Positions 6,161 to 30,952 of a stretch of DNA of 32,367 nucleotides are shown in pieces (positions within the stretch are counted from its first letter, which is position 1; each line of letters begins with the position of its first letter). The stretch spans positions 1 through 32,367 of the forward strand of contig CAYUZR010000002.1 of the NCBI GenBank assembly GCA_964449555.1, in the 5' to 3' direction. The DNA is from an uncultured Candidatus Saccharibacteria bacterium (GTDB taxonomy: Bacteria > Patescibacteriota > Minisyncoccia > Phycocordibacterales > UBA12079). The notes below the pieces were generated by a model, which saw only the letters and a program-made list of their open reading frames with translations, was not told the origin of the DNA and ran no database searches. The position numbers and the translations under genes were made by a program.

Positions 6161-6321
6161 AATAATTTCAAAATTGGATGAGATCCAGTTTGGTTTTGTA
6201 AAAAATTACTCGTAGGGTACCGGGTAGCACACCTTCGCTACGCTTCGGGGGGGGTACCCGGTACGCCTCCCTCGTATTTTTTATCAAAACAAAACCGAAG
6301 ATCGCTAATTTTGGAATTATT
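6161..6321. repeat. long imperfect hairpin element A, with a nested 56-nt palindromic core (6209-6264); right end contains the ppsA stop
   Basis: Left end aataatttcaaaattgg (6161-6177) pairs with ctaattttggaattatt (6305-6321) at 15/17 positions, and the arms continue imperfectly inward. The core ctcgtagggtaccgggtagcacaccttcgctacgcttcggggggggtacccggtac recurs inside murB. Confidence 0.8.
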
Positions 6322-8287
6322 TCTCTTCTTTACTAACTACTAGAGTAGTTTTCACCACCGTATCTGGAATCAAAGAAATTGAATCAATTTTACAGCCAAC
6401 CAAGAATTTAACAAATTCAGGATAATCACTCGGTGCTTGCCCACAAATTCCAACTTTTGATTTTGCTTTTCGAGCTTTTTTAACAAGCTCTTCAACCATC
6501 TTCATAACAGCTGGATTATTTTCATTTGAAGTACCTTCAATTTCCAAAGTTCCAGAAGCATCTCTGTCAATTCCAAGAACCAACTGGGTTAAATCATTTG
6601 AACCTACTGAAAATCCATCAAACACTTTCGCGAATTCTTCGGCTAACAAAATATTTGAAGGAATTTCTGCCATTACATATACCTCCAATCCATCCTTACC
6701 TTTTTTAAGTCCGTTTTTAGCCATAATATCAATAACCTTCTTACCCTCCTCAACAGTTCGACAGAAAGGAACAAGAACTTTTAGGTTAGTTAGCCCCATT
6801 TCTTCACGAACTTTCTTCAAAGCTTCACATTCTAAATCGAAAGCAGGCCTGAACTCTTTTGAATAATAACGGCTCGCACCTCTCCAGCCAATCATTGGGT
6901 TTGACTCTTCTGGCTCATAGGCTTGTCCCCCAATCAAGTTTGCATATTCGTTAGTCTTAAAATCAGATAATCGAACGATTACTGGTTTCGGATAAAACGC
7001 AGCACAAATTCTACCAACACCCTCAGCTAATTCATTAACGAAGAATTCTTTTTTGTTTTTATAATCACCTGTTATCTTTTCAATTTTTCTTTTTGTTTTT
7101 TGATCTTGTTTATTGAAGTTAATCAAAGCAAGTGGGTGAATTCTAATTGTATTGTTGATAATAAATTCAAGCCGAGCCAAACCGACCCCATCATTGGGAA
7201 TAAATGAATTAGAAAAAGCTAAATCAGGCTCACCAATATTCATCATTATTTTTGTTTTAGATTTTTTTAACTTACCAATATTAGTCTTCTTAATTTCGAA
7301 ATCTAACAAACCTCTATGAACTTTTCCTTTTTCTCCTTCTGAACAATTAATTGTCACTTTATCTCCTGTTTTAATTTTATCTGAACCATTTTCCGTTCCA
7401 ACAATACAAGGAATTCCTAATTCACGAGAAACAATCGCAGCGTGACAAGTACGTCCACCTTTATCGGTTACAATTGCTGATGCAATCTTCATAATTGGCT
7501 CCCAATCCGGATCAGTCATGCTTGTTACTAACACCTCGCCTTTCTTAAACTGAAGAATATCACTTACATCCATTATTCGATTTACCTTTCCTGCTCCAAT
7601 TTTTTGCCCAACAGATTGCCCTTCTATTATTACACTTCCATTTTCCTTTAATTTATATTCTTCAATAAAATTAGCATCTTTTTGACTCTGAACAGTTTCT
7701 GGCCGTGCCTGAACGATATATAATTTTTTATCTTTACCATCTAAAGCCCATTCTATATCCATCGGTCGATTATAATGTTTTTCGATAACCATTCCCCACT
7801 CAGCCAATTTTTTCGCCTGTACATCAGTAATCGATTGTTTTTTTCTATATTTTTCATCAACAGGCACATCTTTTACCGGCTTACCAAAACCACTGTTGTA
7901 AATCATTTTTATATCTTTTTCAGCGACAGTTTTTGAAATAATTGCCCCTGTTGGTTTGAAATAATAAAATTCATCAGGAGTTACCTTCCCTTGCACAATA
8001 TTTTCACCCAGTCCATAAATAGAATTAATTAAAACAACATTTTCGAAGCCGGACTCCGTATCAATAGTAAACATAACACCCGAGCATCCTTTATCTGCAC
8101 GAACCATTTTTTGAACACCAACAGAAAGTGCAATATCAAAATGATCAAAACCTTTATCTTCACGATAAGAAATAGCTCGATTTGTAAATAAAGATGCAAT
8201 ACACTTTTTAACAGCAACCAACAAAACCTTTTCTCCTTTAATATTTAGATAAGTTTCCTGCTGACCTGCAAAAGAAGCATCTGGCAA
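6317..8287 (-). CDS. ppsA: phosphoenolpyruvate synthase (pyruvate, water dikinase), C-terminal 656-aa fragment
   Basis: PDASFAGQQETYLN, phospho-His domain GGRTCHAAIVSRELGIPC, PEP-utilizer TIM-barrel end GSNDLTQL...GICGQAPSD. The frame is continuous upstream through VAVRSSATAED to two TAA codons. Confidence 0.9.
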   Translation of the reverse strand: MPDASFAGQQETYLNIKGEKVLLVAVKKCIASLFTNRAISYREDKGFDHFDIALSVGVQKMVRADKGCSGVMFTIDTESGFENVVLINSIYGLGENIVQGKVTPDEFYYFKPTGAIISKTVAEKDIKMIYNSGFGKPVKDVPVDEKYRKKQSITDVQAKKLAEWGMVIEKHYNRPMDIEWALDGKDKKLYIVQARPETVQSQKDANFIEEYKLKENGSVIIEGQSVGQKIGAGKVNRIMDVSDILQFKKGEVLVTSMTDPDWEPIMKIASAIVTDKGGRTCHAAIVSRELGIPCIVGTENGSDKIKTGDKVTINCSEGEKGKVHRGLLDFEIKKTNIGKLKKSKTKIMMNIGEPDLAFSNSFIPNDGVGLARLEFIINNTIRIHPLALINFNKQDQKTKRKIEKITGDYKNKKEFFVNELAEGVGRICAAFYPKPVIVRLSDFKTNEYANLIGGQAYEPEESNPMIGWRGASRYYSKEFRPAFDLECEALKKVREEMGLTNLKVLVPFCRTVEEGKKVIDIMAKNGLKKGKDGLEVYVMAEIPSNILLAEEFAKVFDGFSVGSNDLTQLVLGIDRDASGTLEIEGTSNENNPAVMKMVEELVKKARKAKSKVGICGQAPSDYPEFVKFLVGCKIDSISLIPDTVVKTTLVVSKEEK

Positions 8288-8350
8288 GTCTTCAGCAGTA
8301 GCAGAAGAACGAACAGCAACATCTACATTTGTATCTTTTTAATTTTTAGA

Positions 8351-8689
8351 TTATTTTTTATAAGCTTCAACAATTTCCTCTCCTAAATGTTTCGGAAATT
8401 TTGCTCGCATAATAATCCTACGAACTTTCGCACCTCGAGTCATCAAGTTTCGAATATCGTGAGTATCTAAATCAGCTAAAACTTTTCGAATCTTTTCTTT
8501 CGCACCACTTTCTTCAAGAAATTCATTATAAGCATGTGAACTAGTAGCAAAACCATTCGGAATATTTACTCCTTTCTTGGTTAGTTTTTGATACATCTCA
8601 CCTAGAGAAGCATTTTTTCCCCCAACAAGAGGAACATCTTTGTTTGTTAGTTCATTGAACCAGAATACATTCTTTGTTTGTTTTGTCAT
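8351..8689 (-). CDS. ppsA: PEP synthase N-terminal 112-aa fragment
   Basis: FWFNELTNKDVPLVGGKNASLGEMYQKL..GVNIPNGFATS matches the PpsA N-terminus. Same frame as 6317..8287. Confidence 0.88.
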   Translation of the reverse strand: MTKQTKNVFWFNELTNKDVPLVGGKNASLGEMYQKLTKKGVNIPNGFATSSHAYNEFLEESGAKEKIRKVLADLDTHDIRNLMTRGAKVRRIIMRAKFPKHLGEEIVEAYKK

Positions 8690-8693
8690 AAAT

Positions 8694-8728
8694 TATTTAG
8701 ATTTATGATTTATGATTTATGATTTAAG
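8694..8728. repeat. tandem heptamer array, consensus ATTTATG, about 5 units, abutting the ppsA start
   Basis: tatttag atttatg atttatg atttatg atttaag. Begins 5 nt upstream of the ATG at 8689. Confidence 0.85.
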
Positions 8729-10357: not shown

Positions 10358-10630
10358 CTAAAGCTGTATCACCAAAACCGGTGTGTTAAGCATGGATGTC
10401 TCGAAATATGCATCCTCTGCAAATTCCTTACATCTTTTTAAAATCATACTAGCAGTTTCTCCTGTACATCGAGGAAGTCAATGTAACAGGCCAATCCCTC
10501 CAATCTCTTCAATAGGTAATTTGCTTGCTCCAATCTTTACCTTATTGTTTTTGTTTCTTTCTGTTTTTTGAGCAATTTCAGGAAGAGATTTGAGAAAACG
10601 ACATACTTTTTCTTTTTTTCCGCACGACAT
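10358..10630 (-). CDS. small Cys-rich hypothetical protein with one in-frame TGA (50 aa to the TGA at 10478-10480; 90 sense codons if decoded)
   Basis: GGAGGG (rc of 10638-10643) lies 7 nt before the ATG at 10630. MSCGKKEKVCRFLKSLPEIAQKTERNKNNKVKIGASKLPIEEIGGIGLLH-TGA-LPRCTGETASMILKRCKEFAEDAYFETSMLNTPVLVIQL-TAG. The terminator starts 9 nt after the TAG. Not in the ORF track. Confidence 0.55.
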
Positions 10631-14493: not shown

Positions 14494-14617
14494 TAAATAA
14501 TCCAAAATTGGATGAAGTTCGAGGAAGTTTTGTTAAAATTGTTTGAGCCGCATAGCAATACGGTGAAAATAATTTTTGCAAAAATGACGAAGAAATTCGC
14601 CAATTTTGGATTATTTA
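14494..14617. repeat. long hairpin element C with perfect 18-bp terminal inverted repeats; contains the secA stop
   Basis: taaataatccaaaattgg (14494-14511) is the exact reverse complement of ccaattttggattattta (14600-14617). The interior pairs imperfectly. Same family as 6161-6321. Confidence 0.85.
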
Positions 14618-17166
14618 CCATGACACTTTTTAAATTTTTTGCCACTACCACAGTGACAAGGATCATTCCGCCCAATTTTTTCTTGTTCTGTTTTTACAAT
14701 CGGTTTTTGGACTGAATCTTCTCTTTCACTTCCCTCTTTTTCGGCAATACTTTTAGCTTGTTCTTGGGTTGCTTGTAAATTTTGTTGTTCACGAACAAAA
14801 GCACCTGCTCCCATATTTGGAATAAAATGTAAAATCTTTTCATTAATTACAAATTGCATTTCTTTGAACATTTGCAGACCTTCTTTTTTATATTCAACAA
14901 GTGGATCTCTTTGTCCATAAGCTCGTAAGTTAACAGAAGATCTCAAATAATCCATTACCTCCAAATGTTCCACCCAAAGCGTATCAATTGTTTGTAACAT
15001 TAATCTTCTCATTACAACAAAAAATTCTTCATCACCTAAAATTTCTCTTTTATCAGCAATAGTTTTTTCCATATTTTCTCTTGTTCCAAACTCCTCCTCA
15101 ACATCTACAGTAGCCTTGCTACTGTAGATTTCGTTGAGGATGTTATTTAGGGAATTTTCAACATCTTCATTTTTCCCAAATAAAATTTTTCGTCGTCTTT
15201 CATAAACAATTTTTCTTTGGAAATTCAAAACATCATCGTATTTCAAAACATGTTGTCGTGAATCGAAATTAAAACCTTCTATTTTTTCTTGTGCAGATTC
15301 GAGAGATTTTGTAATAACTCCATTTTTAATAGCTTCATCCTCAGGAATACCTAATCGTCCCATCATATTCTTAACTACATCAGAAGCAAATACCCTCATT
15401 AAAGTATCTTCCATTGAAACAAAAAATTGTGTTTCTCCAGGATCACCTTGACGACCAGAACGACCCCTCAACTGATTATCAATTCTTCGTGATTCATGTC
15501 GTTCTGTCCCTACCACAAAAAGACCTCCAAATTTTTTGATTTCTTCTTTTTGTTCGTCTGTCGCATGGACACCACCAAGTTTAATGTCAACTCCACGACC
15601 AGCCATATTGGTTGCAACCGTCACCTTTCCCTTTTCACCAGCCTGAGCAACAATTTCACCTTCATTATCGTGATTTTTAGCATTTAATACTTCATGTGGA
15701 ATACCCTCAGCACTTAAATATTGAGAAAGTAACTCATTTTTTTCAATAGATACTGTTCCGATTAAAACAGGTTGTCCTTTTTGATTTAATTCTTTGACTT
15801 TTCTTGCTAATGCTCTAAATTTTCCTGTTTCTGTTTGGAAGATTAAATCATTTTGATCAATCCTTTGAATATCCTGATGAGTAGGAATCTCAATAGTTCC
15901 TAGTCCATAGACCTTATGAAATTCTTCAGAAGAAGTCTGAGCGGTTCCCGTCATTCCTGAAAGCTTTTTGTAAAGTCGAAAATAATTTTGAAAAGTAATC
16001 GAAGCAAAAGTCCTCGATTCTTTTTGAACCTCTAATCCTTCTTTGGCTTCAATGGCTTGATGAAGACCTTCAGACCATCGTCTTCCTGGTTGCATTCGTC
16101 CAGTAAACTCGTCAACAATAACAACCTCACCATTTTTTATCACATAATCTTTGTTATTTTCAAAAAGTGCCTTAGCCCGCACAGCTGTTTCAAGGTGATG
16201 CACAGATTTTATTCCTTTATCAGTATAAATATTATCAATTCCCAATGCTTTTTCTGTCTTTTCAATTCCAGCATTCGTCATTTTTATAGCTTTATATTTT
16301 TCTTCAACCTCAAAATCCTGTTCTTTTACCATCGTCTTTGCAATCTGTGCAAATTTTGCATACAAATCTTCTGATTCGGTAGTTGGAGTTGAAATAATTA
16401 AAGGAGTTCGTGATTCATCAATAAGAATAGAATCAACCTCATCAACAATCGCAAAGTTATATTCTCTTTGTCTGATTTCGTTTTTTCTATATTCGATATT
16501 ATCTCTCAGATAATCAAAACCAAACTCGTTGTTAGTTCCATAAGTTATATCTGCTTCATAAGCTTCTTTTCTAGAACAAGGTCTTAAAAATTCTTCAACA
16601 ACTTTATATGAACCCTCTTCGTCTCTTTCTTCATCCATCTCTTTATGATTAGGATCATAAATATATGATGAGTCACTATTTATAACTCCAATAGTAAGAC
16701 CAAGAGCAGAGTAAATTTGCCCCATCCAAACAGCATCCCTTCGTGAAAGATAATCGTTTACAGTAACAACATGGACTCCCTTTCCTCCAAGGGCATTGAG
16801 ATAAACCGGCAATGTTCCTACTAAAGTTTTTCCTTCACCTGTTCTCATCTCTGTAATTTTTCCTTGATGTAAAACAATTCCTCCTATTAACTGAACATCG
16901 TAATGTCTTTCATTAAGGGTTCTTTTTGCTGTTTCTCTAACTACTGCAAAAGCTTCTGGGAGGATATCATCAAGTGTTTCATTTTCTTTTAGTCTTTTTT
17001 TGAATTCCTTTGTCTTATCTTTCAATTCTTCATCAGACAAATTCAAAACACCCTCTTCAAGAGAGTTAATTTTATCAACAATTGGTTGAATCGATTTTAA
17101 GTATTTTTTATTTTCGTCACCGAAAAGTTTCTTTAGTATCTGCATAGTTGAATGCCATTTTAACAT
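14611..17166 (-). CDS. secA: preprotein translocase ATPase SecA
   Basis: MRTGEGKTLV, DEVDSILIDESRTPLIIS, TNMAGRGVDIKLGG, and a C-terminal zinc motif CHCGSGKKFKKCHGK. Family N-termini suggest the real start is the ATG at 17145 (MQILKKLFGDEN). Confidence 0.95.
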   Translation of the reverse strand: MLKWHSTMQILKKLFGDENKKYLKSIQPIVDKINSLEEGVLNLSDEELKDKTKEFKKRLKENETLDDILPEAFAVVRETAKRTLNERHYDVQLIGGIVLHQGKITEMRTGEGKTLVGTLPVYLNALGGKGVHVVTVNDYLSRRDAVWMGQIYSALGLTIGVINSDSSYIYDPNHKEMDEERDEEGSYKVVEEFLRPCSRKEAYEADITYGTNNEFGFDYLRDNIEYRKNEIRQREYNFAIVDEVDSILIDESRTPLIISTPTTESEDLYAKFAQIAKTMVKEQDFEVEEKYKAIKMTNAGIEKTEKALGIDNIYTDKGIKSVHHLETAVRAKALFENNKDYVIKNGEVVIVDEFTGRMQPGRRWSEGLHQAIEAKEGLEVQKESRTFASITFQNYFRLYKKLSGMTGTAQTSSEEFHKVYGLGTIEIPTHQDIQRIDQNDLIFQTETGKFRALARKVKELNQKGQPVLIGTVSIEKNELLSQYLSAEGIPHEVLNAKNHDNEGEIVAQAGEKGKVTVATNMAGRGVDIKLGGVHATDEQKEEIKKFGGLFVVGTERHESRRIDNQLRGRSGRQGDPGETQFFVSMEDTLMRVFASDVVKNMMGRLGIPEDEAIKNGVITKSLESAQEKIEGFNFDSRQHVLKYDDVLNFQRKIVYERRRKILFGKNEDVENSLNNILNEIYSSKATVDVEEEFGTRENMEKTIADKREILGDEEFFVVMRRLMLQTIDTLWVEHLEVMDYLRSSVNLRAYGQRDPLVEYKKEGLQMFKEMQFVINEKILHFIPNMGAGAFVREQQNLQATQEQAKSIAEKEGSEREDSVQKPIVKTEQEKIGRNDPCHCGSGKKFKKCHGK

Positions 17167-17191
17167 AAATCGGTCCAGATTACGAAGAAAA

Positions 17192-17232
17192 ACAAAAAAC
17201 CGCTAAACGGTTTTTTGTGCCGTTTGGCGGTT
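17192..17232 (-). terminator. intrinsic terminator
   Basis: On the minus strand: aaccgccaaacgg (rc of 17220-17232) / ccgtttagcggtt (rc of 17198-17210), 12 of 13 positions paired, then UUUUUGUUUUU. Starts 5 nt after the TAA at 17237-17239. Confidence 0.75.
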
Positions 17233-17236
17233 AGTT

Positions 17237-17716
17237 TTAAGTTGCCTGTTCAATATCTTTGCGAGTTGAAACAATCAATTCTGCATTTCGAAAATAGCAG
17301 TCTTCAGCTAACCAGAAAGTATAACGCATTGGCATACCTTCACGAAGAAGACGGGGTTCAGACACAAGATCTTCTGATAAACCAGCAAATTGTCCATCAG
17401 AACAAAGAGGATAACTCTCACGGCTTGGATCAAAATCGCCATAATGAAGAGAAAAACAAAAATCTATACCTGCGGAAGAAAGAATCTTGTTCAAAAATTT
17501 CATACCGCAATTATGACTAATGTCTCTGATTTCGTCAGAATTATATCCTTCACGCCCATCGACAAGAGTCACTCAAACACTTTTTGTTACTCCTTCAGAT
17601 TTTTCTAAAAGAAAAAGTAAGAGTTGTTTTGCTGATTTTGACCTCTCCTCACCACCTTTCCATTTGAAATTTAGGATGTTTTCTTTAATTTTTGCAATAA
17701 CTTTTTTCTTTTCCAT
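17237..17716 (-). CDS. hypothetical protein with one in-frame TGA (47 aa, TGA at 17573-17575, then 111 more codons)
   Basis: AAGGAG (rc of 17724-17729) lies 7 nt before the ATG at 17716. MEKKKVIAKIKENILNFKWKGGEERSKSAKQLLLFLLEKSEGVTKSV-TGA-VTLVDGREGYNSDEIRDISHNCGMKFLNKILSSAGIDFCFSLHYGDFDPSRESYPLCSDGQ... The track shows only 17237..17572, with GTG read as M. Confidence 0.6.
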
Positions 17717-17769
17717 TTATCATCTCCTTTTTTTGAAAATATTTATTTTTTCAGTTCCTGTTTAATATA

Positions 17770-18840
17770 TTACCACTCAACAACTTCAAAGTCAATATCT
17801 AAACCTGTTTTTTGTTTTACATCTTGCTGAATTTTTTGGGCGAGATTTTTTATTTGACTACAAGTGGCGTTTTTGTGGTTAATGAGAATTAGGGGGTGTT
17901 TTTTGTAACATCCTGCGTCCCCTTTCTTGTAACCTTTTAAGTTTAGGATTTTGTCGAGGATGTAAGCAACGGGGATTTTGTAAGTATTACCTTCAATTGC
18001 TCGTAGGGTACCGGGTAGCACCCCTTCGCTACGCTTCGGGGGGTACCCGGTACCCACATCGCACTTATAGTAAGGAATGTCAGGATATTTTTTTAAAAGT
18101 TTATCCAATTGGTTTTTAGTGATAATTGGATTTTTGAAAAAAGAACCAGCTGTTCCTATTTTTTGCCAATTGGGAAGTTTTTCATTCCGAGTCTGAAGAA
18201 TTTCTTTTCTTTTTTCTTTTAAATCTTTTGAAGATGTTTTTTGAAGATTGTAAGCAATTTTCAGAACAATCCAATTTAATTGTTTTTTAAAAACCGAATC
18301 GCGATAACCAAAACGACAGTCTGAGTTTTTTAGTTTTATTATTTTTTTTGTTTCTATATCAAAAACTTCAACCCAATCAACAATATCAGATACTTCTGTT
18401 CCATAAGCCCCAATATTTCCAACAACCGAAGCACCAACTGTTCCGGGAATGCCAGAAAGGTTTTCTAGGCCAGAAAGACCTTGATTAATTGTGTAAACAA
18501 CAAAATCATCCCAGGTCTCTCCTGCTCCTGCTATTATTTGAACAAAATTACTACCAGAAACCGGGTTACTCACTCCGCTTCGCTTCGCAGTAACCCGGTT
18601 TCTGTCCGTAATTTCCATTTTTATCACAAGACCATTGACACCTTTGTCAGAAACAAGGAGGTTGGAACCTCCACCGAGAATATAAACAGGTAGTTGCTTT
18701 CGCTTTGCGAAAGCAACTACCTGTTTTAAATCTTCAATATTTTTCACAACAACAAAATATTTTGCCGGACCACCGATTTTAAAAGTAGTGTGATCTTTTA
18801 GTAAAATGTTTTGTCGAATTTGCATGACTTTAAAAAACAA
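17770..18840 (-). CDS. murB: UDP-N-acetylenolpyruvoylglucosamine reductase MurB carrying two in-frame palindromic insertions
   Basis: LKDHTTFKIGGPAKYF, ILGGGSNLLVSD, GLENLSGIPGTVGASVVGNIGAYG, GSFFKNP, KKHPLILINH. The likely start is the ATG at 18825 (MQIRQN); the track start at 18840 is a TTG. Confidence 0.9.
   Translation of the reverse strand: MFFKVMQIRQNILLKDHTTFKIGGPAKYFVVVKNIEDLKQVVAFAKRKQLPVYILGGGSNLLVSDKGVNGLVIKMEITDRNRVTAKRSGVSNPVSGSNFVQIIAGAGETWDDFVVYTINQGLSGLENLSGIPGTVGASVVGNIGAYGTEVSDIVDWVEVFDIETKKIIKLKNSDCRFGYRDSVFKKQLNWIVLKIAYNLQKTSSKDLKEKRKEILQTRNEKLPNWQKIGTAGSFFKNPIITKNQLDKLLKKYPDIPYYKCDVGTGYPPKRSEGVLPGTLRAIEGNTYKIPVAYILDKILNLKGYKKGDAGCYKKHPLILINHKNATCSQIKNLAQKIQQDVKQKTGLDIDFEVVEW
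17995..18053. repeat. palindromic mini-element copy inside murB (in-frame, 18 codons)
   Basis: aattgctcgtagggtaccgggtagcaccccttcgctacgcttcggggggtacccggtac. Compared with 6204-6264, the 54-nt core (18000-18053) has one substitution and G6 instead of G8, and the 5-nt aatt(g/a) flank has one further change. Confidence 0.9.
18558..18601. repeat. second palindromic mini-element inside murB (13-bp arms, 18-nt loop)
   Basis: aaaccgggttact cactccgcttcgcttcgc agtaacccggttt. The loop shares CGCTTCG with the 18000-18053 element, and CTTCGCAGTAAC with 18986-18997. Confidence 0.85.
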
Positions 18841-18854
18841 AGCTAATTAATTTA

Positions 18855-19052
18855 AATAATTACTCACAGACACCGAGTTACTCGCTCAGTTTTTAAAAAT
18901 AATTAAATTTTCTTAAGTATCAAATACTTTCGTCCTATCGGATTTCAAATATTTGATACTAGAAAATTCATTATTTTTCTAAAACTTCGCAGTAACATCG
19001 GTCTCTCGTTCGTAATTTCAAAAACCGAAATTCGCTGATTTTGGAATTATTT
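18855..19052. repeat. long imperfect hairpin element B between the ligase-like gene stop and the murB start
   Basis: Arms gacaccgagttactcgctcagtttttaaaaataat...agtatcaaata (18869-18927) pair with tatttgatact...aaaacttcgcagtaacatcggtctc (18950-19005). The right-terminal 35 nt (19019-19053) match 6289-6323 at 30 of 35 positions. Confidence 0.75.
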
Positions 19053-21678: not shown

Positions 21679-23509
21679 CGCGACTACTATACATGCGCGC
21701 GAAATATGTCCCCTTCTCTTTAAGAAGTTCATCCGGCGTACCGGATTCAACAACCCGACCATCTTCGAGTACATACAACATATCCATCTCACGGACTGTT
21801 GAGAGCTGATGTGCGATGACACACACGGTAACCTTTCCCTTCAGCTCTTGGATGGTACGCTGGATATGTTGCTCAGATTCTGTATCCAACGCACTTGTCG
21901 CCTCGTCGAGCAAGAGAAGCTGGGGCTTGCGCGCCAAAGCACGCGCGATGGCGATACGCTGACGCTGTCCTGCTGAAAGCATGACACCGCGCTCGCCCAC
22001 CTTTGTGTTAAACCCTTCTGGGAGCTTTTCGATCACATCGTAAATATGCGCCCTCTTTGCCGCTTTTACGACATCTTCGTCGGATACATTTTCATCGAAA
22101 AAGCGAATATTTTCGCGCACCGTGTCATTTATTAAAAAAATATCCTGCGATACATAAGCGATATTTTTACGCCATATATTGATATCAATATTACTCACAG
22201 GTACACCATCCAACACTAAAGCACCTTTGGTCGGCTCGAGAAGTCTCAAAACAATATCAAACAAAGTTGTTTTACCAGAACCTGAGGGACCAATGATCCC
22301 TACCATAGCACCGTATGGAATTGATAAATTAACACCATTCAAAACATCGCCACCTGTATCGTAGGAAAATCCAATATCCTTAAACGCAAGCTCACGCTCA
22401 AATTGAAACGGCTTTGAATACTTTTTCTCTTTTTTATGTCGAACTTCTCGGTGTTTCGACGCCTCCTCACCGTATCTCAATACATTAGATGCGTATGGAG
22501 CCGCATCATTCATATTAAAGAGAATGGTCTGCCCAGACTGTACAGACGCAAAAATACGCTGAACCAAATAAACAATGGCAGCAAGTGCACCAACACTGTA
22601 AGATGTTTCATAATACGCAAACGCAACCACGACCGCAACAAAAATGACGGTAATCGGCTGAATAAAAATTACGACCAATTTCCTCAGCATAAAAGTGCGT
22701 ATATGTAACGCGCGGAATATTGAAAAAAAACTAACACCGATATCAGTAATCTTATCTTCCAAACCCATCGCTTTTACAATCTTCACGCCACCAAGATATT
22801 CATTTACTAGATGCGCAATACGCTTATTCATCTCAGCGGTTTCGCGGGCAGCGACACGACCTTTAGAAAAAACCGGTTTAAACACCAAAAACATCAAGGC
22901 ACCGATTCCTAACGCAAGAAATGTAATTGTTTCTGATATGTTGAGTGCAACAAAAAGATAAATTGCGAGCCCGGAAGCAAACATAATCATTTTCACAAAC
23001 AAATCAAGTAATGCTGCGGTTTGTAGCACATTAATTTTTAAAAGTGTTTCCAGATTTCCCTGTCGCTGTTTTAGGAGATATGGCCAACTTGCATAAAGTG
23101 TTCGCTTAAAAAGACGGTTCATCAAGTCCTCTTGATATTTTGTCTTAAGATGTACCTGTATGTAGTAAAAGGCTAGCAACACCACTGCTTTCAAAGTAAA
23201 AAGTGTCACAATGAGGGCGAGGATCGCAGGTAAAGTAAGCTCAATTCCTGTAAATGAAAAAGTGTTTAAAATCGCCTGTGATATAAAATCGTCTCCGGAC
23301 TGCCCATTTCCGATGAACACAGAAAACAATGGGATAAGCGCACTAATACCAACTGCTTCAAGAATACCACTTAAAAATCCCAATACTAAAAATATAGCCA
23401 CATATCTCCGGTATCCGGCAATCAAGCGCAATATGAGTCTTGCAGCTCTCCCCACCTCACTAAATTTTAGACGTTGCATAGTTAACATATGTATATGTAT
23501 ATTATTCAC
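21674..23509 (-). CDS. ABC exporter, fused permease plus ATPase (MsbA/PglK-like type I exporter)
   Basis: Six-helix TMD, then GPSGSGKTT (Walker A), LSAGQRQRIAIARAL (signature), LLLLDEATSALD (Walker B), IAHQLST (H-loop). The start is uncertain: GTG at 23509, or ATG at 23488 or 23479. Confidence 0.92.
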   Translation of the reverse strand: MNNIHIHMLTMQRLKFSEVGRAARLILRLIAGYRRYVAIFLVLGFLSGILEAVGISALIPLFSVFIGNGQSGDDFISQAILNTFSFTGIELTLPAILALIVTLFTLKAVVLLAFYYIQVHLKTKYQEDLMNRLFKRTLYASWPYLLKQRQGNLETLLKINVLQTAALLDLFVKMIMFASGLAIYLFVALNISETITFLALGIGALMFLVFKPVFSKGRVAARETAEMNKRIAHLVNEYLGGVKIVKAMGLEDKITDIGVSFFSIFRALHIRTFMLRKLVVIFIQPITVIFVAVVVAFAYYETSYSVGALAAIVYLVQRIFASVQSGQTILFNMNDAAPYASNVLRYGEEASKHREVRHKKEKKYSKPFQFERELAFKDIGFSYDTGGDVLNGVNLSIPYGAMVGIIGPSGSGKTTLFDIVLRLLEPTKGALVLDGVPVSNIDINIWRKNIAYVSQDIFLINDTVRENIRFFDENVSDEDVVKAAKRAHIYDVIEKLPEGFNTKVGERGVMLSAGQRQRIAIARALARKPQLLLLDEATSALDTESEQHIQRTIQELKGKVTVCVIAHQLSTVREMDMLYVLEDGRVVESGTPDELLKEKGTYFARMYSSRD

Positions 23510-24323
23510 TCGGTAGAATCTTCAAGCTCCTAGTTATATGTTTATCCGAAGTATGGGCACCCAAAAAAAATTTAAGTGGTCGGATCAAACGCAAAAAATT
23601 ATCCTGCTTCCAGGCAGTATCGTAACTAATTGTATTGAGACGCGATGCGTCATGACGAACTCGACTCCCTCCCGCAATATGCGTCGACGAGGTCGCCGAA
23701 TTCCAGTCTGAAAACGGCGGGAGACCAAATCCTGACATAATCGCTTCGGAAATGCTCTCAGGTGCCGCGCAAAAATCTTTATAACAAAGAGTTGTGTATG
23801 GGATACCAATTTCACGAAGAGAGCGTGTAAAACGTCGTCGTTGCTGTGCCCAGCGCTTGAAGTTGAGCAGATCGCCGATTATCGGCGGGGCGACATCTGT
23901 TCTTCGCATTGAGTACGCCCACGCGCTCGGCTCTTTCATAAGGTACACCGCACGCACATCATACCCAGCAGCTAGAGCAACCTTAGACCCCACTTGAAAG
24001 CCCTCTATGGTTTTCGAAGCGTCTATGACAACACTATACTTCTTTAGCGCGGGAGAATGAAGTACATCATTATACCATCCTTCAAGATTATTAGCAGTAC
24101 GAGGAACCGATGACCAGAATGGACATCCACCGAGAGTTTGGCCACAAGTACACTCGCGCCCTTCTGTTGGGCGAAGTTCTTGACGAGGCATTTCACCTGC
24201 AACTTCGCCAAGCGCTACCGCCCCCGGATATCGCGAAAGGTATGCATTGAGCACAGTAGAGCCACTACGACCAAGGCCAATAATATACAAAAAAAGCTTT
24301 GGGTGTTTGTTTATTTTGTTCAT
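23502..24323 (-). CDS. sulfotransferase-family protein
   Basis: PAPS 5'-phosphosulfate-binding loop IIGLGRSGSTVL near the N-terminus. A later VYLMKEPSAWAYSMRR region sits where the 3'-phosphate-binding motif lies. This is the most GC-rich gene in the window. Confidence 0.7.
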   Translation of the reverse strand: MNKINKHPKLFLYIIGLGRSGSTVLNAYLSRYPGAVALGEVAGEMPRQELRPTEGRECTCGQTLGGCPFWSSVPRTANNLEGWYNDVLHSPALKKYSVVIDASKTIEGFQVGSKVALAAGYDVRAVYLMKEPSAWAYSMRRTDVAPPIIGDLLNFKRWAQQRRRFTRSLREIGIPYTTLCYKDFCAAPESISEAIMSGFGLPPFSDWNSATSSTHIAGGSRVRHDASRLNTISYDTAWKQDNFLRLIRPLKFFLGAHTSDKHITRSLKILPSE

Positions 24324-24341
24324 AATGTGATATTCATAGTA

Positions 24342-25514
24342 TCATTTTTTGTACTCTTTATTAAGTATCTTCTTATATATCTCGTATACCGCCTCATCGA
24401 ACGGCTGTTTATTTTCCATTGCACGACGGGCTTCTTTACTCATCATTTCTACCTTGTCGCGATGATCATAAAGATACTTAATCTTTTCCCCGAGCGACTT
24501 TGCATCACGGACAGGAACCACAAAACCGGTTTTGCCATCTTCGACGATACTCTGCGCATTCTCGGTAGTAACAATTGGTAAACCGCAAGCCATCGCTTCC
24601 ATAACCACCTTCGGATTTCCCTCTGCAAGTGAAGGCAAAGCAAACACTGATGCTTCTCTATAATGTTCTTCCGGTTGTGATGTGTTGCCGACCCATCGTA
24701 TACTCGAATTCTGAGCAATGCGCCTGATGTAACTCTGTTTAAGTTCCTCTGGCATTTCTCCATAACTACCAATAAGAACTAATTCCGCATTCTTTAGATT
24801 CAGTGATTCCCACGCGTCCAAAAGATAGTGCAGACCTTTGTGCAGTTTCGTATATGCGGCATATAGCACTCGAAATGGCTCTTCCTTGGAGCGCGGTTGC
24901 CTAGGTGGCGTAAATCGTTTTATATCAATATCCGTGTTAGCGACAAAAATCCGCTCTGCAGGATACCCCTGTGCAATATAAGAACGCTTCACAAAATCAG
25001 AAATAGCAATGACATAATCAAATTCATTGAGATGCCCACTTGTACGAGCATATTCGGCAAAGAAACCTTTGTATAGAGAGAAGCCAAGTAATCGTGATTC
25101 TTCTCTTTCTAAATCAGCACTGAATTGCATGTGCCCATTCCTTGTGATATCAACCGTAATGGAGCCGTTTTTTTGCGACTTTCGCAAAGTTCGCGGCAAA
25201 AAACGTCCGTCATGAAATAGAACTACATCGGTTTTTTGTAGCCGATATTGAGTGCAAAAATCAAAACGCTCTTCCCGCTGTCTTCGAGAGGGAAATGTAA
25301 GATTGAAAGCTTTCTCCACCCCCCTAAAGAAGTAATGAATAATGGTTGGTATGGCCTGTACGGTATTTTTAAAATAAAAATCCGTATTAGTCCTACAAAT
25401 AACCTGGGTCAATTCACCTGTTTTTGAAAAAACATTGATGACGGGCAAAATATTAGCTGTGGGATGACTTGTCTTCTTTCCCAAATCTGCGAATGTGATG
25501 ACGGAAATCGACAT
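24342..25514 (-). CDS. GT4-family glycosyltransferase (Glycos_transf_1), paralogue of 29795..30949
   Basis: LPSLAEGNPKVVMEAMACGLPIVTTENAQSIVEDGKTGFVV is the E-x7-E GT4 C-terminal motif. TGA stop. Confidence 0.88.
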   Translation of the reverse strand: MSISVITFADLGKKTSHPTANILPVINVFSKTGELTQVICRTNTDFYFKNTVQAIPTIIHYFFRGVEKAFNLTFPSRRQREERFDFCTQYRLQKTDVVLFHDGRFLPRTLRKSQKNGSITVDITRNGHMQFSADLEREESRLLGFSLYKGFFAEYARTSGHLNEFDYVIAISDFVKRSYIAQGYPAERIFVANTDIDIKRFTPPRQPRSKEEPFRVLYAAYTKLHKGLHYLLDAWESLNLKNAELVLIGSYGEMPEELKQSYIRRIAQNSSIRWVGNTSQPEEHYREASVFALPSLAEGNPKVVMEAMACGLPIVTTENAQSIVEDGKTGFVVPVRDAKSLGEKIKYLYDHRDKVEMMSKEARRAMENKQPFDEAVYEIYKKILNKEYKK

Positions 25515-25518
25515 ATAT

Positions 25519-27480
25519 TTATTTCTTTATAATAACCGCTATCGCATCTTTGCCTCGTATTGGATTAGTACTCTTCAAACTTTCAAAAAAGTGAATCTCT
25601 TTAATCTGCGTTTCAAGAATCTTTTTCTCTTCTGGGGTGGAAAGGGGAGATGACCATACACCGGTTGTCTTAAGATTTTTTAACAACTCAAGTGTTGTGG
25701 GTACATCTGAGCGTTCAAAACCCTCGGGCTGATATCGCAAATCTTCTATAAAGAAGAGTCCGCCTGAAGTAAGATGAGGAAACAAATAAGATAGAGTGAT
25801 CTGTTGATGTGGCGATGCATGAAGCGCGTCTTCTACCACAATATCAAGCTTTTTTTCTATATCTAATATTTTTTTAAGGTCATCGCGAGAACCCTGATCG
25901 CCTTGAACAATAAAAGATTTTTTATCTTTGGATTGTTTAAACGTACTAATATCAAATCCGATAATAGTAGCGTTCGGCAAATAATCACGCCACATGCGTA
26001 GCGATGGAGCCGTGGGATACAACTCTTCACTACTACCTCTACGATTACGATCCTGTTTTGAACTAATCTGAAATTTATCTCGCAATAATCCTATTTCACA
26101 TAATGTAAATTCTTCGGACCTTTTGTTTTTGAAAAAGTGGTCATAAACACGAATATAATTATGTTGACCTACACCTTTATCTGTTTTTACCTTATTTGCA
26201 AATCGCATTAAATCGTTAGCGCGATACAACTTCACCCAATAAGCACAATACTTCATAAAAGCAAGTGGATTCAACCCAATTTTAAATACTAAATCAAATA
26301 ACTTATATATTGAGTTCATATCATTTGTTGAATTTTTATGTAAATACTTTTTTTTGTATGCTTTTGCTATTAGCATCGAATATTTTTCAGCGGTTTTGCG
26401 AATGTCGAATTCTTCCGCTGTTTTTCTCGCGTTTTTGCTTATCTTTTCGTAGTCTGCATATACCATCTTTTCAAAACTTTCTACAACAGCATCTACAGAT
26501 GATTCCGGTATGAAAAAACCGTTTTCTCCGTCAACAAGCAATTCGTCTGTGCCAGCAGTTTTCGTCGAGACAAGCGGTAAACCTGACGCAAGTGCTTCAA
26601 GATAAGCAATACTCAACCCTTCAATATCAGACGTGGACACAAAAATATCGCTCATTTTATAGAACTTTTCGATATCACGACGTAGACCAAAGAGTATTAC
26701 CACACCATCAAGCCCCAATTCTCGAACACGCGCCTCAAGCTTTTTGCGCATTCCCCCCTCGCCTGCTACCGCCAACTTATATTCCGGATGCTTCTTATGA
26801 AAACGCGCAAAGCCCTCAAGCATAAGCATATGATTTTTCTTAGGCTTCAGCCCCGCCACGTTTAAGAGCACCTTGTCAGACGTCTTGAATCCAAGTTCCT
26901 GTTTAAGCGTATCTTTTGACGGTAAAGCCGCGATCGCGGATTGTATTTTTTCTATATCGACACCGTTTTTAATCACTACAAATTTATTTTTTGGTATGCG
27001 TTCCTGCTTGATAGTAAAGTCAGCGACCGTATTTGAAACAGCAATGATACGGTACGACAATCGCGCCAACCATCTATCAAGAGTTATTTTCGCCCACGTT
27101 TTATCAACATAAGTGTTGTGCTCAATAGGTATAACCACATAACCCATAAATAACTTGAGTATCCTCACGATGGTATTACTAAAGAAAAGATTGGGCATCA
27201 CAACATCTGGTTTAATAGACCGCAGCGTCTTATAAAACTCCACCCAACTTGAAATATCTTTGAAACCATGAAAGTTTAGTTTATACACCGGAAGCCACGA
27301 TGGCAATTCATCATACAGTACTACTTTACCTGGAATCTGAGAGAGTGTGATAAACGAAAGATCAATGGTATTTTTATCTAACAGAGGCATCAACTCTGTC
27401 AATTGTTTCTCCGCACCACCAACACAAAAGTTATCTATAACAATTGCGACTTTTATTTTTTGTGAATTAATTATTTTCAT
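25519..27480 (-). CDS. bifunctional fusion: GT4 glycosyltransferase (aa 1-387) plus SAM-dependent methyltransferase-like domain (aa 388-653)
   Basis: N-terminal part: VSTSDIEGLSIAYLEALASGLPLVSTKTAGTDELLVDGENGFF. C-terminal part begins at the internal ATG at 26319 (MNSIYKLF) and is colinear with the 30953..31732 product (APSLRMWR.YLP, GDQ.SR.DL, DDALHASPHQQITLS.LFPH..SGG.FFIEDLR). Confidence 0.85.
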   Translation of the reverse strand: MKIINSQKIKVAIVIDNFCVGGAEKQLTELMPLLDKNTIDLSFITLSQIPGKVVLYDELPSWLPVYKLNFHGFKDISSWVEFYKTLRSIKPDVVMPNLFFSNTIVRILKLFMGYVVIPIEHNTYVDKTWAKITLDRWLARLSYRIIAVSNTVADFTIKQERIPKNKFVVIKNGVDIEKIQSAIAALPSKDTLKQELGFKTSDKVLLNVAGLKPKKNHMLMLEGFARFHKKHPEYKLAVAGEGGMRKKLEARVRELGLDGVVILFGLRRDIEKFYKMSDIFVSTSDIEGLSIAYLEALASGLPLVSTKTAGTDELLVDGENGFFIPESSVDAVVESFEKMVYADYEKISKNARKTAEEFDIRKTAEKYSMLIAKAYKKKYLHKNSTNDMNSIYKLFDLVFKIGLNPLAFMKYCAYWVKLYRANDLMRFANKVKTDKGVGQHNYIRVYDHFFKNKRSEEFTLCEIGLLRDKFQISSKQDRNRRGSSEELYPTAPSLRMWRDYLPNATIIGFDISTFKQSKDKKSFIVQGDQGSRDDLKKILDIEKKLDIVVEDALHASPHQQITLSYLFPHLTSGGLFFIEDLRYQPEGFERSDVPTTLELLKNLKTTGVWSSPLSTPEEKKILETQIKEIHFFESLKSTNPIRGKDAIAVIIKK

Positions 27481-28094
27481 TTTTCTAGGAATACATAATA
27501 ACCACTTGTCTGTTTAGACTCTAACTTGCCTGACAATATATCAAGTATATTACCACATTTTTTAAAGACAGTGTATCTTCCAAGAGGCCTCAACTTAAAC
27601 CACGTGGCAATAGCCCGTCTTACTTTGATTATCTCACATTTAGCAAACGGCTTTGAGAGCCAACGCAATCCATCTTCGGTAAATCTCCAAAAGTCACCAT
27701 AATAACCTTTTTCTGCATGATAATAATATAGAAAAGGAACATATATGAAAGCGTAACCTCCCGGCCTCAGCACACGATATATTTCCTTATAGGCTTTAAT
27801 AGGGTTCTCCACGTGTTCTAATACAGCCATACAAATAATGGCGTCGATGGAATTATCATCAAACGGCATATTATGAACATCTCCAACTATATCCGGATGA
27901 TAAGTGTCTACCGGATCCATTATTTTATAATCAACCTTTTCAACATAAGACCTCAACCATTCTCTCGACGAATCGTATCTATTATTCTTATCCTTCATCA
28001 AGCGCAGTCCGCCTCCGATATCAATAACCTCTTTTTTTTCTTTAAAGATTCTAGTTACCCTCTCGTTAAAAAATTTTTGCCAAGGTGTATTCAT
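27477..28094 (-). CDS. class I SAM-dependent methyltransferase (Methyltransf_11-like)
   Basis: VIDIGGG, IDAIICMAVLEHVENP, LRPGGYAFIYVP. ATGA start/stop overlaps at both ends. Confidence 0.85.
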   Translation of the reverse strand: MNTPWQKFFNERVTRIFKEKKEVIDIGGGLRLMKDKNNRYDSSREWLRSYVEKVDYKIMDPVDTYHPDIVGDVHNMPFDDNSIDAIICMAVLEHVENPIKAYKEIYRVLRPGGYAFIYVPFLYYYHAEKGYYGDFWRFTEDGLRWLSKPFAKCEIIKVRRAIATWFKLRPLGRYTVFKKCGNILDILSGKLESKQTSGYYVFLEK

Positions 28095-29146
28095 ATAAAT
28101 GCAATTATATCATCTGCTCTTCTCTCCCAAGTAAATTCTCTTACTCGCTGGGTAGCCTTAGTGGCTTTGATTTGAGCCTCATCATACCTTTCTAACACTT
28201 CAGAAATCCTTTTGGTTACATCATTTGAATTATTCGGATCAAATAGGTATGCGGTAGATTCATCCAAAACCTCTCGTATTGACGGCAAATCTGTGGACAC
28301 TATTGGATTTCCACTCGCCATATATTCAAACATTTTAAGTGGCGACATATATTTGGTATAGTGTTTTGTGTTCGGATAATTCATCACAAGAATATCAACA
28401 GCTTTCATATAGACAGGCACCTCACAGGGTTTAGCTTTAGAGACTATTAAAAGTTCCACTTCTGGATGTCTTTTCTTAACATCACTAATCACTTTATCCA
28501 ATTCCCCAACTCCCTTCTCTTCTCCCATCGTCTTGAGTTTACCAACATACGCAATAATTTTTTTATTTAGGGGAAGATCGAGCCTCTTTCGCAGTTGTTC
28601 CTTTGAATTTTTTATACTTTCAAATACATTCAAATCCACCCCGCTCGGTGCGACCATTATTTTTTCTTTAGAAACGCCGAAAGATAGGTAATATTCTTTC
28701 AATCCGTTGCTAATAACCACAAGCTTATTCAATCTCTTAAGCAATCCCGCCACAACCCATTTCTTCTTCGCTGTATGTGATTCCCATACAATATTTTTTT
28801 TAAAAAAACTTAAGTAAGAAAGAGAGAGTTCATCCCGACCATAGATGATATCCACCTTCTTGAATAATACATAAAAAAAGGCAGACACCGCAAAAGAGAG
28901 TGCCTGAACCAAAAATCCAATTTTACCAAACCGAACAAAGTCCAATGTCGGCAACTTGGTGATTTTAAAGCACTCTTCCATTCCATAATGCTGAAAAGGA
29001 CTTTCCTTCGAGACATTGTACCTGCGGGGCACCACAAGCTCCACAACGTTACCGTGCAAGACAAAAGCCTCGCACATCTTCATCGTTGCAAGCCCGTGTG
29101 CTTTACCGGTTGGGATGCGAATATTGGCGAGATAATACATTTTCAT
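28091..29146 (-). CDS. GT4-family glycosyltransferase
   Basis: GT-B layout with KYMSPLKMFEYMASGNPIVSTDLPSIREVLDESTAYLF (E-x7-E-like). ATGA overlaps. Confidence 0.8.
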   Translation of the reverse strand: MKMYYLANIRIPTGKAHGLATMKMCEAFVLHGNVVELVVPRRYNVSKESPFQHYGMEECFKITKLPTLDFVRFGKIGFLVQALSFAVSAFFYVLFKKVDIIYGRDELSLSYLSFFKKNIVWESHTAKKKWVVAGLLKRLNKLVVISNGLKEYYLSFGVSKEKIMVAPSGVDLNVFESIKNSKEQLRKRLDLPLNKKIIAYVGKLKTMGEEKGVGELDKVISDVKKRHPEVELLIVSKAKPCEVPVYMKAVDILVMNYPNTKHYTKYMSPLKMFEYMASGNPIVSTDLPSIREVLDESTAYLFDPNNSNDVTKRISEVLERYDEAQIKATKATQRVREFTWERRADDIIAFI

Positions 29147-30949: not shown

Positions 30950-30952
30950 GAA

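What the first reader, a model, noticed from the sequence alone, without database searches (positions are those of the whole stretch)
17237..17716. Second SD-driven gene interrupted by a single in-frame TGA, again terminator-flanked and GC-richer
AAGGAG lies 7 nt before the ATG at 17716. There are 47 codons, then TGA (17573-17575), then 111 further codons to TAA (17237-17239). A 13-bp-stem terminator with a U-run starts 5 nt later.

The supplied track shows only the distal 111 codons, with GTG read as M. The proximal 47 codons are in the same frame (144 nt from 17716 to 17573) and have the only good ribosome-binding site. The context is KSV-TGA-VTLVDG.

The alternatives are a decoded TGA or two coupled cistrons. 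In the second case, termination-reinitiation would occur at TGAGTG, where the stop is directly followed by GTG.

Two independent genes in 7 kb share this architecture, while neighbouring genes use TGA as a true stop. That makes a gene-specific recoding signal or a shared mobile origin worth testing.
Basis: partly seen in the sequence, partly recalled or inferred. Interest (0 to 1): 0.66.

Follow-up and report, generated by a model that had tools for sequence, protein, structure and literature searches.

The report
Nonsense-interrupted accessory gene, not selenocysteine
A small gene of unknown function in an uncultured Patescibacteria genome really is cut in two by a TGA stop codon, but this looks like an ordinary one-base nonsense mutation in a dispensable, strain-specific gene and not a specially decoded codon.

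Summary
On the minus strand, AAGGAG lies 7 nt before the ATG at 17716. Then come 47 codons, TGA (17573-17575), GTG plus 110 codons, TAA (17237-17239) and a terminator hairpin.

The two pieces are one ancestral gene:
- About 25 close homologues, and 297 cluster representatives in a profile search, are mostly single ORFs of about 145-180 aa that span the junction.
- The TGA is identical in six assemblies, so it is not a one-off assembly error.

It aligns with a Cys that is invariant in the 24 closest homologues, which looks like a selenocysteine signature. The rest argues against that:
- Across 174 family members the column is Cys in only 87; the others have Y, S, R, A, H, F or T.
- No other member is truncated there.
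- No SECIS-like hairpin follows the TGA.
- TGA ends five other genes in the window.
- A random one-step TGA would hit a Cys codon about 25% of the time in this gene.

The gene sits in a variable MurB-SecA slot that holds unrelated cargo in the sister genome. Two other family members are broken by frameshifts elsewhere. The "second case" (10358-10630) is an orphan with no homologues.

Verdict: a population-fixed TGY→TGA nonsense allele of an accessory gene. Interest is low.

The parts
17237..17716 (-). The whole interrupted gene: a member of an uncharacterised Patescibacteria protein family, 159 codon positions including the in-frame TGA.
   Evidence: Homologues of about 174 aa cover 96-99% of the fused product. 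All 15 columns that are invariant in the close subfamily are retained.
17576..17716 (-). Proximal 47 codons (MEKKK...GVTKSV). They correspond to the two N-terminal helices and the first residue of strand 1 of the family fold.
   Evidence: hhalign against alignment A3 gives probability 93.7% and E = 1.8e-7, ending at profile residue V42. The AF2 model of homologue P0003 has helices at 4-15 and 22-34 and a strand at 42-47.
17573..17575 (-). In-frame TGA. It aligns with Cys43 of the close subfamily, most simply derived as TGT/TGC to TGA.
   Evidence: Alignment A1. The codon is identical in the window, L003-L006 and L016. Homologues use TGC or TGT at this position.
17237..17572 (-). Distal 111 codons starting with GTG directly after the TGA. 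They carry the family's conserved HYGDFDP and RYTFW motifs and end in TAA.
   Evidence: P0001; 134.6 bits, E = 2.7e-34, profile positions 44-159.
17724..17729 (-). Shine-Dalgarno-like AAGGAG, 7 nt before the ATG.
   Evidence: Read directly from the sequence.
17767..17795 (-). Sigma-70-like promoter match (TTGACT, 17 nt, TAATAT, with an upstream TG) inside the 3' end of murB. It may be the gene's own promoter.
   Evidence: This is a consensus match only: 3 sites were found against 3.0 expected by chance, so the evidence is weak.
17188..17232 (-). Intrinsic terminator: a hairpin of about 14 bp (17232-17198) followed by a T-run, starting 5 nt after the TAA. It also reads as a hairpin on the plus strand.

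Best explanation
This is a strain-specific accessory gene from an uncharacterised protein family confined, as far as named hits show, to Patescibacteria/Parcubacteria. It has suffered a single-base nonsense substitution: a Cys codon (TGT or TGC) became TGA. The allele is fixed in the sampled population.

Inferred mechanism:
- Ribosomes start at the good SD and ATG (17716) and make 47 residues.
- They are then released at UGA by RF2, as at the five other TGA-terminated genes in the window.
- The distal 111 codons are translated only at a low level, if at all. This could be by re-initiation at the abutting GUG or by occasional near-cognate read-through.
- The gene is therefore a recently inactivated or strongly down-tuned copy on its way to being lost. 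It is not a selenoprotein or recoded gene.

Shown: the two pieces are one gene, the TGA is real and recurrent across assemblies, the aligned residue is a substitution-tolerant Cys, the gene is accessory, and other family members are also disrupted.

Inferred: normal termination at the TGA and loss or reduction of function.
For: 1. One ancestral gene. Of 25 homologues, 19 cover 96-99% of the fused product as single ORFs of 171-193 aa (alignment). The profile search finds 297 representatives, most of them single ORFs.
2. The TGA is real. A 571-nt stretch is 100% identical in the window and four JGI assemblies, and also in ENA contig L016.
3. The derivation is one step. Homologues have TGC or TGT at that column. 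In this gene, 5 of the 20 codons one step from TGA are Cys codons, so a random TGA nonsense hit lands on Cys about 25% of the time.
4. The column is not functionally fixed. Among 174 aligned members it is C 87, Y 19, S 15, R 13, A 9, H 9, F 5, T 4.
5. No other member starts or ends at that column, and no intact allele above 49% identity exists in the database.
6. There is no recoding signal. The downstream fold has z = -0.9 (60 nt) and -1.7 (80 nt) against shuffles and lies at the 9th-11th percentile of native in-frame positions. No hairpin meets bacterial SECIS-type rules, whereas 10% of control positions have one. Rfam finds nothing.
7. TGA is a true stop here. Five genes end in TGA, including glycerate kinase. 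Its Pfam match reaches the end of the model, and its length matches the sister genome (426 against 427 aa).
8. The gene is accessory. The sister genome (SecA 91% identical) keeps the gene order but has an unrelated 145-aa gene plus a toxin-antitoxin pair in the murB-secA slot. None of 38 relatives has a family member within 4 kb of secA, and the murB-secA gap ranges from 33 to 1593 nt.
9. The family decays elsewhere. L027, L028 and L029 carry a member with a frameshift near profile position 52 in three independent assemblies, and P0126/P0060 is a pair of overlapping ORFs split near position 80.
Against: - The gene shows no second lesion and keeps every subfamily-invariant residue in both halves. 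It also keeps a strong SD and a terminator. So it is either very recently broken or still under selection.
- The stop is immediately followed by an in-frame GTG (UGAGUG). That arrangement can support re-initiation.
- The TGA falls on a residue that is Cys in all 24 closest homologues, which is also what a Sec codon would look like.
- All copies examined are 100% identical, so there is no divergence with which to test selection.
- The rest of the genome could not be searched for Sec machinery or suppressor tRNAs.
Confidence: 0.65

Rival explanations
1. Functional two-piece protein. Translation terminates at UGA and the same ribosome re-initiates at the abutting GUG (UGAGUG). This yields a 47-aa helical piece and a 111-aa piece that reassemble into the family fold.
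For: - The stop and an in-frame GTG are directly adjacent.
- Both halves retain all conserved residues.
- The allele is fixed in all six assemblies.
- The break falls after the two N-terminal helices in the AF2 model.
Against: - No homologue is organised as two cistrons at this point.
- The other split members are frameshifts at different positions.
- The SD-like GAAGGAG lies 17 nt upstream of the GTG, too far for a canonical SD.
- The break lies at the start of strand 1, inside the part of the domain most conserved across the family. Many distant hits match only profile positions 1-100.
Confidence: 0.15
2. Leaky UGA. Low-level near-cognate read-through (Trp, Cys or Arg inserted) gives some full-length protein. 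This would work because the position tolerates many residues. The stop would then act as an expression attenuator.
For: - The column accepts C, Y, S, R, A, H, F and T across the family.
- The gene is otherwise intact.
- UGA is generally the leakiest stop codon in bacteria (my own knowledge, not tested here).
Against: - There is no read-through-promoting structure or motif.
- TGA serves as a normal stop for five genes in the window.
- Nothing distinguishes this site from any fresh nonsense mutation.
Confidence: 0.1
3. Selenocysteine. The UGA is decoded as Sec by SelB and tRNA-Sec, making this a selenoprotein form of a family whose relatives use Cys.
For: The TGA aligns with a Cys present in all 24 closest homologues. 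The gene is otherwise intact and the allele is fixed.
Against: - Cys is present in only 87 of 174 family members at that column, and there is no partner Cys or CxxC-like motif.
- The likelihood gain from 'aligns with Cys' is only about 4-fold.
- No SECIS-type hairpin is present, and Rfam finds nothing.
- Among about 300 family representatives, only the window's own copy has a TGA or truncation there.
- No tRNA and no sel gene lie in the window or in any related locus. This is a weak point because only about 32 kb of this genome was available.
- The held literature has no report of Sec use in the Candidate Phyla Radiation.
Confidence: 0.05
4. Sequencing or assembly artefact. The true base gives TGT or TGC and the gene is intact.
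For: This same contig does contain contig-specific substitutions that create false-looking stops in gatB and PEP synthase.
Against: - The TGA and 571 nt around it are identical in the window, four JGI assemblies and one ENA assembly from different samples.
- No intact allele is on record.
- The site does not lie at an assembly breakpoint.
Confidence: 0.02

Closest known systems
Ordinary nonsense-mutated (pseudogenised) accessory genes in reduced bacterial genomes
   Same: - A single one-step substitution from the ancestral codon.
- A strain-variable location.
- Sister genomes lack the gene.
- Other copies of the family are broken by unrelated lesions.
   Different: - Only one lesion is present, and all conserved residues and expression signals are intact.
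- The stop abuts an in-frame GTG, so residual or two-piece expression cannot be excluded.
Bacterial selenoprotein genes (UGA plus a SECIS hairpin read by SelB, with Cys-containing homologues)
   Same: An in-frame UGA at a position where the closest homologues have Cys, in an otherwise intact ORF.
   Different: - No SECIS-like hairpin.
- The Cys is not conserved family-wide and has no redox motif.
- No other Sec-form members exist.
- No Sec machinery was seen.
- To my knowledge and in the searched literature, the lineage is not known to use Sec.
UGA-reassigned genetic codes (table 4: UGA = Trp; table 25: UGA = Gly in Gracilibacteria and Absconditabacteria)
   Same: The organism belongs to the same superphylum as the table 25 lineages, and a UGA lies inside a gene.
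   Different: - Long genes such as SecA (851 aa) and Wzy (755 aa) contain no in-frame TGA.
- Five genes end in TGA.
- Homologues have Cys at the site, not Gly or Trp.
Translationally coupled cistrons with termination-reinitiation at overlapping or abutting stop and start codons
   Same: The stop codon is immediately followed by a start-capable codon in the same transcript (UGAGUG).
   Different: - The two 'cistrons' are halves of one domain.
- Homologues are never organised this way.
- There is no suitably spaced SD.

Membership tests
Bacterial selenoprotein gene | The in-frame UGA aligns with Cys (or Sec) in homologues. | tested here: met
   Cys is present in 24 of 24 close homologues. This is only about 4-fold more likely than under random nonsense mutation.
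Bacterial selenoprotein gene | The Sec/Cys position is a functionally conserved (typically redox-active) residue. | tested here: not met
   Cys occurs in 87 of 174 members, with Y, S, R, A, H, F and T elsewhere. There is no nearby conserved partner Cys.
Bacterial selenoprotein gene | A SECIS stem-loop immediately 3' of the UGA. | tested here: not met
   The rule applied was an apical loop 16-37 nt after the UGA with a G in its first two positions; I recalled this rule from memory. No qualifying hairpin is present, while 10% of control codons have one. The MFE z-scores are -0.9 and -1.7. Rfam finds nothing.
Bacterial selenoprotein gene | Sec machinery (selA, selB, selD, tRNA-Sec) in the genome. 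| not testable with these tools
   Only this 32-kb contig and overlapping contigs could be read. They contain no tRNA and no sel genes.
Bacterial selenoprotein gene | Other orthologues carry UGA at the same column. | tested here: not met
   Among the 150 listed hits (297 at E <= 1e-3), only the window's own distal ORF begins at profile position 44. The candidates P0026, P0060 and P0163 turned out to be a mis-called start and two frameshifts.
UGA-sense genetic code (tables 4 and 25) | UGA is frequent inside conserved genes and is not used as a terminator. | tested here: not met
   There is no in-frame TGA in the 23 other conserved genes, and five of them end in TGA. The glycerate kinase end is confirmed by Pfam and by the sister genome.
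Uncharacterised Patescibacteria family (alignment A3; HYGDFDP and RYTFW motifs) | Both halves are homologous to the single-domain family and conserved motifs are present. | tested here: met
   The distal half scores E = 2.7e-34 and the proximal half E = 1.8e-7. All 15 subfamily-invariant columns are retained.
Nonsense allele or pseudogene of an accessory gene | The stop is one substitution from the ancestral sense codon, and the locus is dispensable in relatives. | tested here: met
   TGT/TGC to TGA. The gene is absent from the sister genome's slot and from the secA neighbourhoods of 38 relatives.
Nonsense allele or pseudogene of an accessory gene | Loss of full-length product. | not testable with these tools
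   This needs transcript, ribosome or protein data.
Termination-reinitiation coupled cistrons | A start codon within a few nt of the stop. | tested here: met
   UGAGUG with zero spacing.
Termination-reinitiation coupled cistrons | Homologues are organised as two genes, or an SD is suitably placed for the second start. | tested here: not met
   Homologues are single ORFs. GAAGGAG lies 17 nt upstream of the GTG.

The most novel reading that the evidence does not exclude
The UGA is decoded as selenocysteine. That would make this the first selenoprotein, in a new and structurally novel protein family, reported from a Patescibacteria (CPR) bacterium, a group not known to carry the Sec trait. The SECIS would have to be too divergent for current rules to recognise.
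Probability: 0.04. Interest if true: 0.75.

Novelty: new member of a known kind. Interest (0 to 1): 0.2.

Why it matters
If the ordinary reading holds, the value is mainly practical.
- The gene should be annotated as one interrupted gene (or pseudogene) and not as a 111-aa protein with a GTG start.
- "TGA aligned with Cys" should not be taken as a selenoprotein signature on its own. Here it has a chance expectation of about 25%.
- The contig has contig-specific false stops in gatB and PEP synthase, a warning for anyone using this MAG.

Only the unlikely Sec reading would matter broadly, because it would extend selenium use to the Candidate Phyla Radiation.

Tried and rejected
- Family libraries: Pfam, NCBIfam, PHROGs and PADLOC scans of the fused product or its homologues gave no hit.
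- RNA families: Rfam at gathering thresholds over the whole window, and permissively over the locus, gave nothing relevant.
- Fold search: Foldseek of a confident AF2 model (pLDDT 90) against PDB and BFVD found no neighbour. The best E-values were 2.4 and 0.077.
- P0026 as a second TGA-bearing homologue: rejected. It is a mis-called start; the DNA reads KEVCMN with TGT.
- P0060 and P0163 as TGA-bearing homologues: rejected. They are frameshifted copies.
- The idea that all three stop codons are recoded in this organism, prompted by TAG in gatB and two TAA in PEP synthase: rejected. Five and two other assemblies, respectively, read sense codons there.
- An orthologue in the sister genome: the 145-aa gene in the same slot is unrelated.
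- Literature: searches for Sec, SelD or selenophosphate in CPR or Patescibacteria found nothing on point. Two Mukai et al. papers concern SepRS/SepCysS and not UGA recoding, and 'SelD' mostly matched 'seldom'.
- Conserved neighbours across family loci: none found.
- The second TGA gene: its homology search returned only itself.

Full report
**What is there**

All features are on the minus strand.
- AAGGAG lies at 17729-17724, followed by a 7-nt spacer and the ATG at 17716.
- After 47 codons comes TGA at 17575-17573, with GTG directly after it.
- An ORF of 111 codons follows, ending in TAA at 17239-17237.
- Five nt later there is a hairpin of about 14 bp (17232-17198) and a T-run.
- The neighbours are murB upstream (17770-18840) and secA downstream (14611-17166).
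- Every gene in the window is on the minus strand, and GC is about 0.33-0.35.

Two embellishments are not. The gene is not GC-richer: 0.356 against 0.350 for the window and 0.361 for murB. There is also no terminator on the upstream side.

**One gene or two?**

It is one gene.
- The fused 159-residue product has no Pfam, NCBIfam or PHROG match.
- It finds 25 homologues in the 5.8-billion-protein collection. Nineteen of them, 171-193 aa long, cover 96-99% of the fused product as single ORFs. The few that carry names are from Parcubacteria or Minisyncoccia.
- A profile search of 1.84 billion cluster representatives finds 297 members at E <= 1e-3.
- The distal ORF matches profile positions 44-159 at E = 2.7e-34.
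- The proximal 47 aa alone match the family N-terminus, ending exactly one residue before the TGA column (hhalign probability 93.7%, E = 1.8e-7).

**Is the TGA real?**

Yes.
- The 571 nt around the gene are 100% identical in the window and four JGI metagenome assemblies, L003-L006.
- The ENA contig L016 is identical to the window over 11.9 kb that include the gene.
- The window is itself a complete 32,367-nt NCBI contig.
- No intact allele is on record. The next-best database match is 49% identical.

**The selenocysteine-like signal and why it fades**

The TGA column is Cys in all 24 close homologues (KEV-C-LTLV). That is the classic Sec/Cys pattern, but it does not hold up.
1. With 174 family members aligned to the family HMM, the column is C 87, Y 19, S 15, R 13, A 9, H 9, F 5, T 4. 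The neighbouring Val is conserved in 160 of 174. So this is a tolerant strand position, not a family-wide catalytic or redox residue. There is no conserved partner Cys either.
2. Homologues use TGC or TGT, so TGA is one substitution away. In this gene, 5 of the 20 codons one step from TGA are Cys codons. A random TGA nonsense hit would fall on Cys about 25% of the time, so the Cys alignment is only about 4-fold evidence.
3. Among the listed family hits, only the window's own distal ORF begins at profile position 44. Three look-alikes were checked. P0026 is a mis-called start with TGT in the DNA. P0163 (L027-L029) and the pair P0126/P0060 are frameshifted copies.
4. The RNA 3' of the UGA folds no better than expected. 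Against shuffles, z = -0.9 for 60 nt and -1.7 for 80 nt. Against 600 native in-frame positions of the window's own genes, it lies at the 9th-11th percentile. No hairpin satisfies SECIS-type rules (apical loop 16-37 nt after the UGA, G in the first two loop positions; rule recalled from memory). Ten percent of control codons do have such a hairpin at <= -7.5 kcal/mol. Rfam finds nothing.
5. TGA is an ordinary stop here. Five genes end in it. One is glycerate kinase, whose Pfam match reaches the end of the model and whose length equals that of the sister genome's copy. Long genes contain no in-frame TGA, so a code 4 or code 25 reassignment is excluded.
6. No tRNA or sel gene occurs in the window or in overlapping or related loci. 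This is weak evidence because the rest of the genome could not be read.
7. The searched literature has no report of Sec in the Candidate Phyla Radiation.

**Context: an accessory gene in a variable slot**

- By SecA, the organism is a Patescibacteria/Paceibacterota bacterium. Its relatives include GCA_964608745.1 (91%), two MAGs at 80-82%, and the complete Candidatus Campbellbacteria genome CP011215.1 (79%).
- The sister genome keeps the gene order: ABC transporter, Wzy, MurB, then SecA, cupin, PaaX, PIF1, glycerate kinase and PEP synthase.
- Between murB and secA, however, the sister genome carries an unrelated 145-aa lipoprotein-like gene and a PhdYeFM-type toxin-antitoxin pair.
- murB-secA adjacency is kept in 28 of 38 relatives, with gaps from 33 to 1593 nt. 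None of the 38 has a family member within 4 kb.
- Elsewhere the family occurs as a stand-alone gene between unrelated housekeeping genes, with no conserved partner and no defence-system match.
- A confident AF2 model of homologue P0003 (pLDDT 90, pTM 0.87) has no structural neighbour in PDB or BFVD.

So the biochemical function is unknown.

**The family decays elsewhere**

In L027, L028 and L029 (JGI, ENA and Logan assemblies) a member is frameshifted near profile position 52, next to a second tandem copy. In another contig the family gene is split into overlapping ORFs of 82 and 92 aa near position 80. That makes three different lesions at three different positions in three lineages, which is what relaxed selection on a dispensable gene looks like. 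It is not what a conserved recoding site looks like.

**The 'second case' and other stops in the window**

- The other TGA-interrupted gene (10358-10630, TGA at 10480-10478) has no homologue other than its own proximal 50 aa. It shows no downstream structure either, so it gives no independent support.
- The window also contains a TAG inside gatB (1787-1789) at a conserved Leu, and two TAA inside PEP synthase (8351-8353 and 8339-8341).
- These are contig-specific. Five other assemblies read TTG in gatB, and two read TTA and TAT in PEP synthase. In L007 both genes are called intact, at 472 and 790 aa.
- They lie in clusters of substitutions, mostly T to A on the coding strand. The clusters sit where other assemblies break or carry N-runs, so they look like assembly-junction errors or rare variants.
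- This contrast strengthens the case that the 17573 TGA is a genuine, fixed allele. It also shows that in-frame stops in this contig need case-by-case checking.

**Most likely mechanism**

I put the following reading at confidence 0.65. A Cys codon mutated to TGA in a strain-specific accessory gene. Ribosomes that start at the strong SD and ATG terminate after 47 residues. The distal part is made only at a low level, if at all, by re-initiation at the abutting GUG or by near-cognate read-through. The copy is a recent loss-of-function or down-tuned allele.

The steps shown are one gene, a real TGA, a tolerant Cys column, accessory status and decay elsewhere in the family. Normal termination and loss of function are inferred.

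The rivals are:
- a functional two-piece protein made by UGAGUG re-initiation (0.15)
- a functional full-length protein made by leaky read-through at a tolerant position (0.10)
- selenocysteine (0.05)
- an artefact (0.02)

What keeps the rivals alive is that the gene has no second lesion, keeps all conserved residues and expression signals, and all available copies are identical. Selection therefore cannot be measured.

**Verdict**

The feature is real, but it is an ordinary kind of thing: a nonsense-interrupted accessory gene. It should be annotated as one disrupted gene. Interest is low at 0.2. Only the improbable Sec reading, at about 4%, would be notable.

Noticed in passing
window 1787-1789, with substitutions at 1822, 1794 and 1788: gatB carries an in-frame TAG at a conserved Leu (ALALNC in solved GatB structures). 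Five other assemblies of the same population (L007-L011) read G, T, T where the window has T, A, A. The three gap-free ones (L007, L008, L010) call an intact 472-aa GatB; L009 and L011 have an N-run at 1827-1833. Other contigs end at 1833-2004, so this looks like an assembly-junction error or a rare variant.
   Followed up: yes
window 8351-8353 and 8339-8341, with substitutions also at 8334, 8098 and 8086: PEP synthase is cut by two in-frame TAA codons that exist only in this contig. L007 and L018 read TTA and TAT at these sites, and L007 calls an intact 790-aa gene. Most window-specific changes are T to A on the coding strand. They lie where many other assemblies break (7444-8728).
   Followed up: yes
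Its only database match is its own 50-aa proximal half. No structure follows its TGA. Its SD region differs between assemblies (AAAAGGAGGG here, ATAAGGAGTG in L003). It may simply be a 50-aa ORF with a 3' UTR.
   Followed up: partly
window 6302-6316, 14597-14611 and 19032-19046 (minus strand): A shared motif, TTCCAAAATYRGCGA(ATTTCGGTTT...), starts at or directly after the TAA stop of PEP synthase, SecA and the Wzy/TPR gene. There are 3 matches against 0.04 expected. After secA it pairs with a distal CCAATTTTGGAT to form a long inverted repeat. It may be a conserved 3' element or terminator.
   Followed up: partly
L017 (ENA scaffold_6113) against window position 8696: One assembly matches the window perfectly down to 8696. 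It then continues into ribosomal protein genes (L6, L18, S5, L15) instead of PEP synthase. This is a structural variant or a chimeric join at the same trouble spot.
   Followed up: no
family of the gene at window 17237-17716 (alignment A3, model m4ea2d23a0edf): The family has 297 cluster representatives at E <= 1e-3, no Pfam, NCBIfam, PHROG or PADLOC model, and a confident AF2 fold with no PDB or BFVD neighbour. Some members have N-terminal extensions of about 130 residues (P0027 and P0029, about 300 aa), and tandem copies exist (L027).
   Followed up: partly
window about 22000-31000: This segment is GC-richer (0.38-0.44 against about 0.32). It carries glycosyltransferase, methyltransferase and sulfotransferase genes with overlapping ATGA-type junctions, and it accounts for four of the five TGA-terminated genes. 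It may be a horizontally acquired glycosylation island.
   Followed up: no
L021 6145-7262 (sister genome GCA_964608745.1): The murB-secA slot of the sister genome holds a 145-aa lipoprotein-like gene and a PhdYeFM-type antitoxin/toxin pair. A MazE-like gene follows secA. This junction collects small mobile cargo.
   Followed up: partly
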